A stretch of 64,000 bases of DNA from assembly GCA_964016885.1 (NCBI GenBank), contig OZ024740.1, positions 272,986,001 through 273,050,000 on the forward strand, read 5' to 3'. Within the stretch, counting starts at the first letter, position 1; each line of letters opens with the position of its first letter. The notes beneath the pieces are model-generated. The model was not told the origin of the DNA. It saw nothing but the letters and a program-made list of their open reading frames with translations, and ran no database searches. The translations under genes and the position numbers were made by a program. The stretch is from Eledone cirrhosa. Taxonomy: Eukaryota. This document shows positions 1,223-62,476 of this stretch, piece after piece.

Positions 1223-1677
1223 GCGTCATGCGGCCAATAATCTCAAGCACCTGCTTGTTTTCACTTCAATTTATTATAGATTTCCGGTTGGTTCGCTGGT
1301 TCGTTCGATAACCGGATGGTTGTTTATATATGGTCAAAGCTCTTTCGTCACACATACTGTGACCTCCTCAGGACACAACACACAACACATGAAAATAAGA
1401 TGGTGTAGGGCAGAACGAAAGAAGGACAGGACACAAAATAAAAATCAAGTCACTGAGGAGGTCACAGAATGTGTGACGAAAGAGCTTGACAATATATGAA
1501 CAACTATTCGGTTATCGAACCAACCAACCAACCAACCGGAAATTTATAATAAATTGAAATGAAAATTATAGAGTGCGTGTGTTTATTGGCAGCATGACAC
1601 TCCCTAAGTATAACAATAACTGTTTCAACACGTGTTTCCCGATAAGAAATCTTGCAAAGCAAATTAAAAAATGAAGT
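1223..1677. mobile_element. Inverted pair of PLE ends with two HHR motifs (1333-1374 minus, 1449-1490 plus)
   Basis: Inverted arms ~1223-1372 and 1452-1600. Motif gtca-CTGAGGA-ggtcaca..tgtgac-GAAA-gagc-TT-gac. The right arm extends to (TA)n. Confidence 0.65.
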
Positions 1678-2012
1678 ATATATATATATATATTTATATA
1701 CACACACACACATATATATATATAGACACACACACACATACACCCTCCACCCCCAGACACACACACACATATATATATATATATATATATATATTTATAT
1801 ATATACATATATATGTGTGTACAAATTAATTGAAATGCACGACAACCGCGTCGTTATATGCAGATGACGTCATCGTATCGGACGACGTAATGGTATCAGA
1901 CTGCACAAAAATTTAGGTAATCGGAGCCAAGCTGATAATATAGTACTTCTTTATCTGGTAGAGACAACTCGGCAGAACTCAGCTATTGAGAATAATTGAG
2001 GTCAGATAAGTG

Positions 2013-2227
2013 TACGAAGTTCGGCTGAAACGTTCATAGGCTAAATACTTCATAGGCTGACCAAGACACTCTCATGCAATTTCCAAATGAGGTTTATTTT
2101 TCAGCATAGTCCTTGGAAAAAAACCTTACAGTTATTAGTAAGAAGAATTGAAATTAATGCATGCAAGACTTTACAGGTCTAGTATTCTTCATTGTCAGCC
2201 TAGGGATTTTTTAAACCCACCCTCGTA
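2013..2227. mobile_element. Tc1/mariner-type MITE
   Basis: TA-flanked degenerate TIRs (tacgaagttcggctgaaacgttcatagg ... aacccaccctcgta). Second copy at 44127-44353. Confidence 0.6.
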
Positions 2228-2586
2228 GTGGATTGATTTTATCTTTAATAGTATGTAATTGGGTAATTACATTTTGAGCAGTGTTTTGGGCTAGTTTAGA
2301 AGGTTCGTTGAGTTTAGGTGTTGGATACAGCTGTGTAAGTATCAGTTATTTACGTAAATAAGACCGTTATTGCTCCAATCAGTTCGCAAACACTCAGCAA
2401 ATGACTTACCCCGAACGGCAACCTGTACTCATGTCTACTGCCAAACCAAACTGTACACACCCTTCAAATTGGGCAAATCGAATGCGGATCACCCATCATC
2501 CCAAACTCGACATATGTTACGGGACCGCGATAACCCCCAAATGGGGAAGACACACGTTATCTACCTGCAGCATTGTGAAACCGTAC

Positions 2587-2752
2587 GTACGTTTTCATGA
2601 GACAAAATATAAGATTTGATATGTGACATACCGCTACGGTTTTGATTATTCAATTCCAGTATTGGTAGTACTGCCAATACTGGAATTGAATAATCAAAAC
2701 CGTAGCGGTATGTCACATATCAAATCTTATATTTTGTCTCATGAAAATGTAC
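2587..2752. repeat. Near-perfect 166-bp loopless palindrome
   Basis: Arms are reverse complements around AGTACT at 2667-2672, with about two mismatches. Confidence 0.95.
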
Positions 2753-57894: not shown

Positions 57895-58100
57895 TATATT
57901 GAACTCCTTTAACCATCTTTTGATCTTATATTATGCATACTCCAGTCCCACAAACTGTAGAGTGCTTCTTATCCGATATCTGCATTGCTTTATTGTACTA
58001 CAATAAAACTCACCTCCTACATTAACTTGCTCCTTAACGGTTGAGCGCTTACTCTCATATTGGATACCTTTTGATGGTCCTTCACCTCTTCTTCTACAAC

Positions 58101-60487
58101 ATGGATTATTACAACATAACCAATTCTACTAAAGACATTCCTATACCTGGTAAATCTGAATTCACCAAACTTCTTATTGAAAAAACCGACTCCTTCGTAA
58201 GAAGACTTAGATGGACAGCCTATTTCTATGACCAGCGCCTAAAAGGGAACACAACTTCCTCGATCATCTTTTTAATTCCAGACGAAATCCTCCTTCCAAC
58301 AAAAATCTAGCACAATTCGAGGAAGAATTAACTAAAATTATAAAAAATCTTAAATTCAAGAGATACCCTTACAAAGGACAAGAGCACCTTGTAAATCTCA
58401 AGAACACAATCTCTAACCTAAATTCCTCAAAAAATGTTTTAGTCCACTCTGACAAAACCAATAACCTATATGGTATTTCCAAGGATAATTATAACAACCT
58501 TATCCTAAAGGAACTTAGGAAAAAGTATCGTAAAACCAACCATGAAAATTTAGAATGCATAAACCTTGAAGCCTATGAGATTATGTCAAAACTTGGCATT
58601 GAAAAAAAGACCGAACCATTCCTCCCAAGAACTCCGAGGATAAATCTCAAGGATCACAAAAACAATTTTCGCACTGAACTACCTGTTAGATTAATCGCCC
58701 CCTCTAAATCTGATCTGGGGGTTGTTAGTAAAGCCATCTTGGATAGGATTATCCCACAGGTTAGTTCTAATTGCTCTTCTTTAAACCTAAATTTATGGTT
58801 TGGTACTTCTGAAGTGATTGGCTGGTTCAACAAATTGGATAATAAAAACAAACTAAAATTTATTCAATTCGATATTGCCAGCTACTATTCCTCCATTTCG
58901 CCTTCACTTCTCAATAATGCTCTATCTTTCGCACTTAAATATTCTGACATCACCACAGATGAACTTCACATCATCCTCACCGCACGTAAAACCATCCTAG
59001 AGTTCAACAACGAATATTGGACCAGAGCCGATACCTCTAACAACTTCGACATCACAATGGGAGCATCCGATTCATCCCAATTGACTGATTTAATTGGTAT
59101 CTTCATTTTGAACTCTCTGAGTCGGAAAATTCCTCAACTTCGCGGTGGAATTTATCGTGACGATGGACTCTTTACTATCCTAAATTGCAATATAGTTAAA
59201 CTTAATATTATTAAGAACAATATACGTAATCTCTTTAACCAACATAACCTAAAAATTGAATTTGATAATAGTACCAAACTAGCTAATTTCTTGGATGTAT
59301 CTCTTAATCTTGACACTGGCCTATATTACCCTTACCATAAAAACAATGAGAATCTTAATTATGTTAACTTTAAATCTAACCATCCTACCAATATCAAGAA
59401 TGCTATAGTTAATAATATTGGAAATAGAATATCTAACATATCTTCTAATAAAAACAGCTTTGATGCTAACGCCAATTACTATAATAACGCACTTTCTAAA
59501 GCCGGCTATCCAGATAAAATCAAATATAATAAAGAAACAAATTCTAGGAAAACTTACAGTAGAATATTTAATCATAACCATTCCAATAATTTTAATAAAA
59601 GACCTAGATACAAAAACATAATCTGGTATAATGCTCCTTTCTCCATCTCTATTAATAACAATATTCCTAAATTATTTTTTAGTGCCTTAAATAAATGCTT
59701 CCCTCCCTCACATATCTATAGTAAAATATTTAACAAACACACCATCAAATTTTCGTATTCTACATCCTCCAATATTTCCAACATCATCTCTAAACACAAC
59801 AACAAAATATTAAATACTAAATCTCTTCCTTCCAATATTGAATTTCATAATAACAATAATAGTACTCCTGACGTCATTATAAACCCTAGGCTAACTTCTC
59901 TAAACCCAAATGCAACGTCAAACACAACTTCGCTAAATGTTCATAATCCAACTCTAAATCAAGAAACTATTATTCCTATTATTCCTATCGCAAACAACTT
60001 CTCCAATCCAATTCCTTCTATAGATAACACTAGATCACTCATTAATAATCTCTCTAATTGCAACTGCCGCATTAAAAATAAATGTCCTCTCAACAACCAT
60101 TGCCTCGATAAAAACTTAATTTATGAATGTAAAATTATAACTAGCACCAATTCCTTCACCTATTTTGGCTCCACTTCCACCTCTTTTAAAGCTCGTCTCT
60201 ATAATCATCATTCATCTTTCAAATACAAACTTAAAAGAACTAACACTGCTCTCTCAGAACTCATATGGTCCTTAAAAGACAAAAACATTAAATATAACAT
60301 CTTTTGGAAAAAGATTTCTTCTGCATCCTCGTACTTGAACAGCTCTCTATCTAAAATCTGTAATCTCTGCCTAAATGAAAAATTTACCATTATCTCTAAC
60401 CTAGAATCCATAATAAATAGACGCTCGGATTTGTTTTCCATCTGCCTGCATAAATTCCATAGAACTTTTCACAAAGTATACAGTTAA
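58101..60487 (+). CDS. PLE polyprotein, RT plus GIY-YIG (~795 aa), with one frameshift near 58240-58262
   Basis: N-terminal STKDIPIP..LIEK..FVRRLRW, FDIASYYSSI, TMGA..S, YRDDGL, NFLDVSL, CNCR..CPL..C, TYFGST..FKARLYNH, CNLCLNEK. Confidence 0.92.
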
Positions 60488-61684
60488 TATTCAATTCTTT
60501 ATCAATTTAGAATCTTTTCTCAAAGGCACATATACATACACCTCTTTAAAATATACCCATCTACCTTACTTTAAAGGGCATTATACACTCTATAATACTC
60601 GTTTATTCATTACCCTCATCCTATCTTCTCGTAAAACAATAACATTTGTTTTTGACATTTTGAATATTCATCCGCAATCATTATTATTTTTTTCCCTCTA
60701 TCATAAATCTTTTTAATCTCAATTTCATCCTTAATTTATTATTATATATTTTTTTAATATATACTCATATATTCTTTAAAATATACCCATCTACCTTACT
60801 TTAAAGGGCATTATACACTCTATAATACTCGTTTACTCATCACCCTCATTCTATCTCCTCGTAAAACAATAACATTTGTTTTTGACATTTTGAGTATTCA
60901 TCCGCAATCATTATTATTTTTTCTCTCTATCATAAATCTTTTTAATCTCAATTTCATCCTTAATTTATTATTATTTTTTTCTCCTCATCAACGAACTCAT
61001 TATTAATACATATGAATTCAATATACAAACTTTAACTTCACATTATTTTTCTCAAATCCTTCTACACATAAACTTTTTCTCTTTGCTAATTTTAAAATTC
61101 CTACATTTCTTCTTTTGACGTTAGAATATTCACCCACAATTATTATTTTTTTTCTCTCTATCTTCATACATAATTTCCCTTCGTTAATTTTCAAATTCCT
61201 TTAATTTATACATTATCTTCCAACGGTTCCCAACCTCTCTATATTAAAACATTATATCTTTTTCTCAGTTATAAAAACTATCTCTTTCTCTCTATCACCC
61301 ATCTCTCCCTTTCCACCTTCACTCTCATCTCCTCCCCTTTTTTTCATCCTTTCCACCCCCCCTCCCTAAATATAATATATTTTTTCCTCGCACATATCCT
61401 CCCTTCGTTAATTTTCAAAATTTCTAATTTATACAGTATCTTCCAACGGTTTTCAACCCCTCTATATAAAATATATCTCCTCTCAGTTATAAAAACTATC
61501 TCTTTCTCTCTATCACCCATCTCTTCCTCTCATCTCCTTCCCTTTTCATCCTTTTCTCTCCCCCCCTCTCTAAATAAAATATTTTTCCCAATATCACACA
61601 TCAATCTAAAACCACTTTTCATATGTTGATTTAAAACTGCACTATCAACAAGTGTTTTTTTAGCCTTCATATCATGTTCTCCTG

Positions 61685-61751
61685 TTTTATCTGATGAAAG
61701 CACAAATATTATTGTTTGATGATGTTTGTTTTTGAAATGCGCATAATAAAA
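61685..61751 (+). ncRNA. HHR in the 3' pLTR
   Basis: Same motif as 57828-57894. Confidence 0.88.
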
Positions 61752-62476
61752 TATATTGAACTCCTTTAACCATCTTTTGATCTTATATTATGCATACTCC
61801 AGTCCCACAAACTGTAGAGTGCTTCTTATCCGATATCTGCATTGCTTTATTGTACTACAATAAAACTCACCTCCTACATATATATATATATATATATATA
61901 TATATATATATATATATATATATATATATATATATATATATATGAACACATGTATATAACAATTTTTGAGTGATTGAGCGCACGTGGTGTAGCAAGCAAG
62001 TGATTCATCGAATGATTTTAAATAGATATACATTCTACATTGCGTGTATGTGTATAACATATATATATATATATATATATATATATATATATATATATAT
62101 ATATATATATATATATATATATATATATACATATATATATGCATATATACGTGTGCAGGGGTGTAAGGTGTGTGGGGTGGTGGTTGTATGTATGTATAAC
62201 GAGAGATAAATCCATAGATACGCATATATATATACATACATACAAACATACGCATATATGTACATTTATACATACATATATATATATATATATATATATG
62301 TGTGTGTGTGTGGATATATATGTGAGAGAAAGAGATAAATAAATAGATAGTTAGACAGATAGATAGATAAACGGACAGACAGATATATATATATATAGAT
62401 ATATATATAGAGGGAGAGAGAGACAGAGAGAAACAGAGGGAGAGCAATCAAGAGACCATCTGAAATAGTAGACATA

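What the first reader, a model, noticed from the sequence alone, without database searches (positions are those of the whole stretch)
1223..61878. Recurrent asymmetric hairpin architecture: inverted PLE end plus a 65-90 nt one-sided tail, from 0.14 kb to 6 kb
Seen: the same layout at 1223-1677, 5784-5985, 20114-23363, 23381-23725, 27670-27810, 28041-28262, 45394-45582, 54840-54986 and 55715-61878. Where the HHR is intact, the inverted arm usually stops shortly downstream of it, while the other arm runs ~65-90 nt further (81 nt at 20114-20195, 88 nt at 61790-61878). Known: PLE insertions often show an inverted 5' pLTR and a 3' tail. Inference: two distinct, reproducible RNA 3' endpoints prime at the two cut strands of a (TA)n target. 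This yields MITE-like ribozyme hairpins that could be abortive insertions or a non-autonomous element class.
Basis: partly seen in the sequence, partly recalled or inferred. Interest (0 to 1): 0.75.

Follow-up and report, generated by a model that had tools for sequence, protein, structure and literature searches.

The report
Penelope insertions pair long, short ends
These nine mirror-image inserts are copies of Penelope-like jumping genes in TA repeats, and across this genome such inserts almost always join one long end to one short end, likely because both cut DNA ends start copying the same RNA at two fixed inner sites and often run off its predicted start, which would explain a layout long described but not yet explained.

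Summary
All nine asymmetric hairpins are real. They are insertions of seven sequence families in (TA)n; two carry Hydra-clade Penelope-like coding sequence (ORF 58232-60487; endonuclease part 21436-22353). Each family has two fixed outer ends 56-90 nt apart. The layout (inverted copy plus one-sided tail) and two internal reverse-transcription starts are published. Added here: 136 of 137 unselected head-to-head pairs join one long and one short end (half expected if independent); partner arms share 264 of 349 subfamily alleles (10-26% for shuffled partners); 201 of 216 junctions are distinct, so hairpins are rebuilt each time, not copied as a MITE; 331 of 857 inner ends pile up in a 15-nt window at a promoter-like site; a bulged hairpin sits just inside the tail in 10 of 28 clusters (0.3 expected). 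The ends are internal RNA sites, not RNA 3' ends, and are not tied to the hammerhead. Best model (0.6): coupled two-site priming on one RNA, with run-off at the RNA 5' end. No RNA data were available. The scan noted the same rules before, in this and other genomes; the counts here are my own.

The parts
55717..57386 (-). Family A inverted arm ending at the short site (-90)
   Evidence: 99.3% inverted match to 60122-61788
57384..58020 (+). Family A upstream pLTR (partial tandem copy), passing through both end sites into the body; hammerhead near 57834
   Evidence: 99.1% direct match to 61241-61877
58232..60487 (+). 751-codon RT plus GIY-YIG-type ORF with Hydra-clade motifs (DKT, YRDDG, CxCx5C, CxxC and CxH); the N-terminal RW motif lies in another frame, so this copy is frameshifted near 58235
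61621..61621 (+). Family A pile-up of inner arm ends (-257), the A of TCA; predicted transcription start
61685..61751 (+). Type I hammerhead motif, predicted cut after 61745
61789..61878 (+). Family A tail (90 nt) between short and long end; bulged hairpin ACTC...GAGT at 61796-61820
20114..22329 (-). Family B' long arm: 78-nt tail 20114-20191, 3' UTR and a 5'-truncated endonuclease frame (21436-22353, CxCx5C); predicted start at 20256 with a TATA-like box 25 nt upstream
22330..23363 (+). Family B' short arm
   Evidence: 99.0% inverted match
45394..45582 (+). Family B mini-hairpin: short arm 45394-45454, long arm 45457-45580, 78-nt tail; only the 3' half of a hammerhead
27670..27810 (-). Decayed family B mini-hairpin, tail on the left
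23381..23725 (+). Family C mini-hairpin, both arms reaching -211 (predicted start, TATA box 30 nt upstream in long copies); U3-A8 hammerhead core in each arm; tail 60-71 nt
28041..28263 (-). Family D mini-hairpin: long arm 28043-28189, short arm 28189-28263 reaching -160; U4A hammerhead cores
1199..1677 (+). Family E hairpin: short arm 1199-1371, long arm 1379-1675, 56-nt tail, hammerhead cores at 1371 (-) and 1453 (+)
5784..5985 (+). Family F mini-hairpin: arms reach -135, next to the predicted start; tail about 68 nt
54839..54986 (-). Family G mini-hairpin with 27-nt arms and an 82-90 nt tail; no hammerhead retained
2915..3048 (+).
23752..24003 (-). Family D single long arm without a partner

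Best explanation
The hairpins are short and long insertions of Penelope-like retroelements (Hydra clade where coding sequence is present) in TA repeats, each likely made when the two cut ends of the target both prime reverse transcription on the same RNA, one at a long and one at a short internal site, and the two cDNAs are then likely joined head to head. Shown: two fixed ends per family; near-strict long+short pairing; partner arms mostly carry the same alleles; junctions differ from copy to copy; inner ends pile up at one site per family. Inferred: a dimeric RT-endonuclease holds one RNA through a bulged hairpin just inside the tail, which sets the short start; when priming uses the 5'-proximal copy of this signal (or a short pLTR transcript), both cDNAs run off the capped RNA start, giving 0.1-0.35 kb hairpins with nearly shared centres but no shared descent; longer copies come from the 3' signal and truncate variably.
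For: Pairing: 136 long+short, 1 long+long, 0 short+short of 137 unselected pairs, 68.5 expected if independent; 50 of 51 in the fixed-interval megabase alone; 291 of 305 in all loci. Forward test on 12 full-length family A copies: 9 had the opposite end class as predicted, 1 was a miss under my label (it fits on re-reading), 2 were uninformative. One template: 264 of 349 common alleles shared by both arms against 10-26% for shuffled partners in six families; 91 private variants mirrored in both arms. Not a unit replicon: 201 distinct junctions of 216. Not one cDNA folding back: short arm longer in 89, long arm longer in 41, equal in 86 of 216. Run-off edge: 331 of 857 inner ends within -2..+12 of the edge, 27 in the 15 nt upstream; solo copies share it, also in raw reads (169 and 168 reads with TA joined at C -210); TATA box at -25 to -32 in 4 of 7 families (1.1 expected) and TCA/TTA in 5 of 7; extra G before +1 in 8 of 13 family A ends. 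Tail hairpin in 10 of 28 clusters, 0.3 expected, and visible by eye in published Hydra-2_Amil. In vitro, a Poseidon element nicks and extends both strands, starts at two internal sites that bound the tail, and is predicted to be a dimer (PMC11167929).
Against: The edges were chosen after seeing the data, so the promoter-motif counts are not a clean test. The extra G is absent in family B' (0 of 14), ambiguous in D and G, and drops to 5 of 10 in A after removing duplicate loci. 153 of 857 arms run well upstream of the edge and 346 stop downstream of it; upstream pLTRs of full-length copies stop at the edge in only 1 of 22 (26 of 87 for other arms, p=0.013) and 12 of 22 run past it (hand count), so not every template starts there. 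85 of 349 common alleles are discordant and 16 of 233 insertions have two or more discordant alleles, which suggests two templates in a minority; mirrored variants could also come from later conversion between arms. In vitro no strand difference in start site was seen. Families C and E lack the RCTC...GAGY hairpin. Coding sequence was seen only for families A and B'.
Confidence: 0.6

Rival explanations
1. Two separate RNA molecules, one per subunit or per nick, are copied from the long and short sites; arms look alike because one source locus dominates in a cell or because arms are later homogenised.
For: 16 of 233 insertions have two or more discordant subfamily alleles; family C shares only 47% of common alleles. 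Both strands are extended in vitro.
Against: It does not by itself explain 136 of 137 long+short pairs; 91 private variants are mirrored.
Confidence: 0.17
2. Sequential route: one cDNA starts at the long site; the short end arises in second-strand synthesis, fold-back or endonuclease resolution, and the inner edge is an RT stall at RNA structure rather than an RNA 5' end.
For: It predicts strict long+short pairing and identical arms. Craig 2021 ascribes the tail to endonuclease resolution and Arkhipova 2013 reads junction palindromes as self-priming. Edges in D and F lie within about 6 nt of the hammerhead core.
Against: The short arm reaches further upstream than the long arm in 89 of 216 hairpins, which a fold-back of the long cDNA cannot give. 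Solo short-ended copies are common (115 of 243 unselected solos). Edges lie 42-88 nt upstream of the core in A, C, E, G, and B' has no full hammerhead. The short site is an RT start in vitro.
Confidence: 0.12
3. A non-autonomous mini-element: a short RNA monomer (predicted start to tail), transcribed from minis or 3' pLTRs by an internal promoter, is the template and is mobilised in trans; the hairpin is rebuilt at each insertion.
For: Solo copies begin at the edge between TA runs; Penelope has an internal promoter in the pLTR that can fire from the 3' pLTR (PMC2377424); mirrored private variants imply many source copies. Compatible with the best model's priming step.
Against: No mini-only lineage was shown; I did not build a tree of minis against ORF-bearing copies. 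The same families include long and ORF-bearing copies with the same ends.
Confidence: 0.08
4. The whole hairpin replicates as a unit (MITE-like DNA element or hairpin RNA).
For: Searches with whole hairpins return 40 of 40 full-length matches with similar centres.
Against: Those searches select for centre. With tail-only or unselected copies 201 of 216 junctions differ, and shared same-arm variants are rare; the family C cases seem to reflect an alternative short end (my reading).
Confidence: 0.02
5. Fold-back assembly artefacts.
For: The two longest inverted repeats are 99% identical; raw-read joints across centres are few.
Against: Most arms differ by 2-25%; tails are family-fixed; raw reads of other runs show the short end at TA and strand-switch joints.
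Confidence: 0.01

Closest known systems
Canonical EN+ PLE insertion: partial tandem pLTR, adjacent inverted 5'-truncated copy, 30-40 bp tail at one end (Craig et al. 2021, PMC8557442: passages, section 11, supplement parts 1, 2, 52; Arkhipova et al. 2013, PMC3846280: passages)
   Same: Same layout, hammerhead in the pLTR, palindromes or microhomology at the inverted junction.
   Different: Tails here are 56-90 nt; the tail is described there as optional or often one-sided, here 136 of 137 pairs have exactly one; the pile-up of inner ends and the tail hairpin are not in the passages read.
Hydra clade of PLEs, including Hydra-1_Obim from Octopus bimaculoides (PMC8557442 section 11 and supplement)
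   Same: RW(K), DKT, CxCx5C, CxxC and CxH motifs, (TA)n target; Penelope-13_HM carries an inverted 5' copy; Hydra-2_Amil ends in the same bulged hairpin (by eye).
   Different: Family A unit is 3.86 kb (published under 3 kb) with a repeat-rich 3' UTR; variant (U3-A8, U4A) and half hammerheads; no tree was built.
Poseidon of Anolis, PAc (Frangieh et al. 2024, PMC11167929: abstract, main text and part of the methods read)
   Same: Two internal RT start sites bound the tail; both strands nicked and extended; predicted dimer; start in a stem-loop; ribozyme cleavage not needed.
   Different: No strand coupling reported; priming site said to be non-homologous to the target, whereas here the short site ends in 3-5 alternating A/T bases in 5 of 5 callable families.
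D. virilis Penelope promoter (Schostak et al. 2008, PMC2377424: passages)
   Same: Transcription starts inside the pLTR from an internal promoter; the 3' pLTR can drive transcription.
   Different: No link made there to short insertions; starts here are only predicted.
Non-LTR retrozymes (bioRxiv 10.64898/2026.07.22.740005: parts 1-2 of 5 and term search)
   Same: Short hammerhead-bearing PLE derivatives without an ORF.
   Different: Retrozymes are head-to-tail tandems; these are head-to-head pairs or solos, several without a full hammerhead; the preprint has 0 hits for tail, hairpin or head-to-head.
L1 twin priming and LTR strong-stop DNA (recalled, not read)
   Same: Two primers on one RNA; run-off cDNA from a 5'-proximal primer site.
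   Different: L1 twin priming inverts without duplicating; here both arms duplicate the same stretch.

Membership tests
EN+ Penelope-like element | Single ORF with RT and C-terminal GIY-YIG endonuclease | tested here: met
   751-codon ORF with conserved FD, YRDDG, FLD and Y.G motifs across 13 sequences; 30 unnamed homologues, E 1e-59 or better. Library support is weak: no Pfam hit for the ORF, GIY-YIG E 0.012 in one homologue, profile hit to a retron RT E 0.009.
EN+ Penelope-like element | Partial tandem pLTR, inverted 5' copy and one-sided tail | tested here: met
EN+ Penelope-like element | Type I hammerhead motif in the pLTR | tested here: inconclusive
   Canonical core in A, E, F, G; variant in C, D; only a 3' half in B/B'. 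Cleavage not testable.
Hydra clade | RWK motif, DKT in place of DKG, CxCx5C linker, CxxC and CxH in the endonuclease | tested here: met
   RRLRW (upstream frame), HSDKT, CNCRIKNKC, CNLC, CLH in family A; CNCPDRSIC, CNLC, CKH in B' against the definition
Hydra clade | (TA)n insertion preference | tested here: met
   46 of 51 pairs have TA at both outer ends
Hydra clade | Placement in the Hydra clade on an RT tree | not tested
   Published sequences were viewed but not brought into a tree; families C-G were not linked to an ORF.
MITE (DNA transposon derivative) | Symmetric terminal inverted repeats and copies uniform in length and interior | tested here: not met
   Ends asymmetric in 136 of 137 pairs; 201 of 216 junctions distinct; lengths 88-2869 nt
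Non-LTR retrozyme | Head-to-tail tandem units each with a hammerhead | tested here: not met
   Head-to-head pairs and solos at all nine sites
Non-autonomous PLE monomer | Own lineage and own transcript | not tested
   No tree of minis against ORF-bearing copies; no RNA run available

The most novel reading that the evidence does not exclude
PLEs integrate by coupled twin priming: one RNA is held by a dimer through a conserved tail hairpin so that one DNA end always starts at the long and the other at the short site. Priming at the 5'-proximal copy of the signal gives strong-stop-like run-off cDNAs, so the roughly 150,000 two-armed insertions extrapolated for this genome are a fossil map of PLE transcription starts, and the short promoter-bearing monomers may themselves be a SINE-like template pool.
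Probability: 0.45. Interest if true: 0.72.

Novelty: new variant of a known kind. Interest (0 to 1): 0.52.

Why it matters
How Penelope-like elements build their inverted repeats and one-sided tail is stated as open in PMC8557442 and PMC11167929. The near-strict long+short rule, the single-template signal, the run-off edge and the tail hairpin give four concrete predictions that the existing in vitro system can test. They also reclassify a very abundant repeat type (51 pairs and 92 solos per Mb for seven families) that would otherwise be mis-annotated as MITEs or microRNA hairpins.

Tried and rejected
Rfam scan: only microRNA-like matches below gathering score among the 150 of 261 rows shown. 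Pfam and NCBIfam do not name the ORF. Neptune clade was my first guess; motifs fit Hydra. Whole-hairpin searches were set aside for centre statistics because they select for centre. Family A tail-only search returned nothing, not even the window's own copy; the family A set rests on a 239-nt query and unselected hits. Short references gave false 5' limits and were replaced by long ones. Counts include duplicates from overlapping loci; later calls were de-duplicated by flanks. RNA: no RNA holder listed, so no RNA test. Read depth is confounded by a read pile-up at 20245 (probably the RAD restriction site). The idea that all templates start at the edge failed on full-length copies. Literature searches with no relevant hit: penelope + twin priming (3 papers), penelope + strong-stop (1), penelope-like + stem-loop + neptune + reverse transcription (0), cryo-EM since 2024 (4), octopus + penelope + hammerhead; subscription papers and the supplements of PMC11167929 and of the bioRxiv preprint were not seen and could hold the pairing rule.
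Full report
Setting. The window lies on contig C1 of a 3.0-Gb animal genome. It is rich in microsatellites. That the animal is an octopus is my guess from recalled repeat types and from the published Hydra-1_Obim family; no call names it.

Observation. Eight of nine hairpins appear as inverted matches of 74-99% identity; the ninth, 27670-27810, has 22-nt arms read directly. 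They belong to seven families (A 55715; B' 20114; B 27670 and 45394; C 23381; D 28041; E 1223; F 5784; G 54840). B and B' share a tail and were mapped together, so the statistics below cover seven references. In 100 stretches of 10 kb taken at fixed intervals a de novo scan found 88 fold-backs touching a TA run; 49 had a 40-99 nt overhang and 7 were symmetric. Raw reads from three other runs show TA joined at position 20192 in about 2000 reads each and a few strand-switch joints near 20251, so the structures exist outside this assembly.

What they are. 55715-61878 is a full Penelope-like insertion: inverted arm, upstream pLTR, 751-codon ORF, 3' pLTR with hammerhead, tail. The protein aligns with 12 of 30 unnamed homologues at 35-40% identity and carries the motifs that define the Hydra clade in PMC8557442 section 11; profile libraries give only weak hits, and no tree was built. 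This copy is frameshifted near its 5' end. 20114-23363 holds the endonuclease end of a second Hydra-type family. Families C-G were not linked to an ORF; they are assigned by layout, hammerhead motifs and target.

Outer ends. Each family has two modal 3' ends: 0 and -90 (A), -78 (B'), -60 (C), -86 (D), -56 (E), about -70 (F), -82 to -91 (G). They are internal: the upstream pLTR passes both and continues into the body, and Frangieh et al. show in vitro that the tail lies between two internal RT start sites. The short end follows the predicted hammerhead cut by 43 (A), 79 (C), 29 (D), 22 (F), about 50 (G) and about 130 nt (E), and B/B' has only the GAAA-stem III-GUC half, so the ribozyme does not set it. 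Two features do track it: 3-5 alternating A/T bases at the junction in 5 of 5 callable families (background 3-9% each; F and G not callable), and a bulged hairpin RCTC-stem-loop-GAGY starting mostly 2-9 nt inside the tail in 10 of 28 clusters against 0.3 expected, with both A-T and G-C closing pairs. Hydra-2_Amil ends in the same hairpin (by eye). C and E lack it.

Pairing rule. Among 137 head-to-head pairs not selected by any query, 136 are long+short, 1 long+long, none short+short; 68.5 long+short were expected under independent choice. Over all loci: 291, 11 and 3 of 305; four of the long+long cases were internal pLTRs. I predicted the far end of 12 full-length copies from their inverted arm: 9 correct, 1 wrong under my label but consistent on re-reading, 2 uninformative. 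Very short arms (under about 30 nt) are missed, which could hide short+short pairs but not long+long ones.

One template, rebuilt each time. Partner arms share 264 of 349 alleles seen in four or more insertions (47-90% by family; shuffled partners 10-26%; D had none), and 91 private variants are mirrored against 320 one-sided ones. Sixteen of 233 insertions have two or more discordant alleles. Junctions are distinct in 201 of 216 hairpins. The short arm reaches further in 89, the long arm in 41, equal in 86, which a single folding cDNA cannot give. So the hairpin is neither a MITE nor a snap-back.

Centres. Of 857 arms, 331 end within -2..+12 of a family edge and 27 in the 15 nt upstream; 153 run further and 346 stop earlier. 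The edge is sharp in B', C and F, softer in D, E, G. Solo copies share it, also in raw reads. It falls on TCA or TTA in 5 of 7 families, with a TATA box at -25 to -32 in 4 of 7 (1.1 expected), and family A shows an extra G before it in 8 of 13 ends (5 of 10 without duplicates; none of 14 in B'). Penelope is known to start transcription inside its pLTR. I infer run-off at a capped RNA start. Against a simple version: upstream pLTRs of full-length copies end there in only 1 of 22 and 12 of 22 run past it, so long pLTRs arise otherwise. The edges were picked after the fact and no RNA run was available.

Mechanism. Shown: fixed ends, pairing, allele sharing, distinct junctions, edge. Inferred: both target ends prime on one RNA at the two sites; the tail hairpin and a few TA base pairs position the short start; cDNAs from the 5'-proximal signal run off the RNA start; the cDNA 3' ends join by microhomology. 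Confidence 0.6. Rivals: two RNAs (0.17), sequential resolution or stall (0.12), an independent short-monomer lineage (0.08), unit replication (0.02), artefact (0.01).

Novelty. The layout, the clade, the (TA)n target and the two start sites are published. The strict pairing, single-template signal, run-off edge and tail hairpin were not found in the passages read or in searches; subscription literature and some supplements were not seen. Earlier notes of this scan report the same rules in this and other genomes; they are unchecked AI notes and are not counted as support. I had recorded the hairpin, the run-off idea and the pairing counts before seeing the matching notes; the first pointer to the Hydra clade came from note e1-9815236. 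Verdict: real, a variant of a known kind, with testable mechanistic content; interest 0.52.

Noticed in passing
window 47974-49983: 669-codon open frame with an RT domain (Pfam RVT_1, E 1.8e-27), LINE-like by its motifs; further RT or zf-RVT fragments at 53582-53908 and 29323-30324.
   Followed up: no
window 3943-47675, about 18 places: A dispersed 190-nt SINE-like repeat, 75-97% alike, on both strands.
   Followed up: no
window 2584-2755: Symmetric 172-nt palindrome, 96.5% identical arms, not flanked by TA runs and followed by a 13-nt tandem repeat; not one of the seven families.
   Followed up: no
window 26415-26450, 52609-52652, 50412-50554: Three further short palindromes of unknown origin.
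   Followed up: no
window 24155-24336 and 34670-34866: Two single arms of a family related to C whose hammerhead-like motif has a U3-A8 core and GCAA in place of GAAA.
   Followed up: partly
window 27890-28008 and 3082-3180: Two more hammerhead-like repeat ends beside TA runs, each with a few relatives in the sampled megabase.
   Followed up: partly
window 120-480; 20114-24336; 27670-28263: Insertions of different families are stacked in one TA run, since each new insertion leaves TA on both sides.
   Followed up: partly
L258, L263, L266 (family A full-length copies): The body starts exactly at the base after the long end, with no pLTR, as if copying stopped at the 5'-proximal start site. Unexplained.
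   Followed up: no
Family E consensus near -309; window about 1396-1406: A CAAGATGGCG word just downstream of the family E edge resembles a YY1 site (recalled), as in the L1 internal promoter.
   Followed up: no
L007 (family A mini-hairpin): Both arms end at -257 with an extra G in sense, separated by one base: the clearest single case of two run-off cDNAs.
   Followed up: yes
L111:7927-8145: A symmetric hammerhead-bearing hairpin between TA runs, a possible exception to the long+short rule in another family.
   Followed up: no
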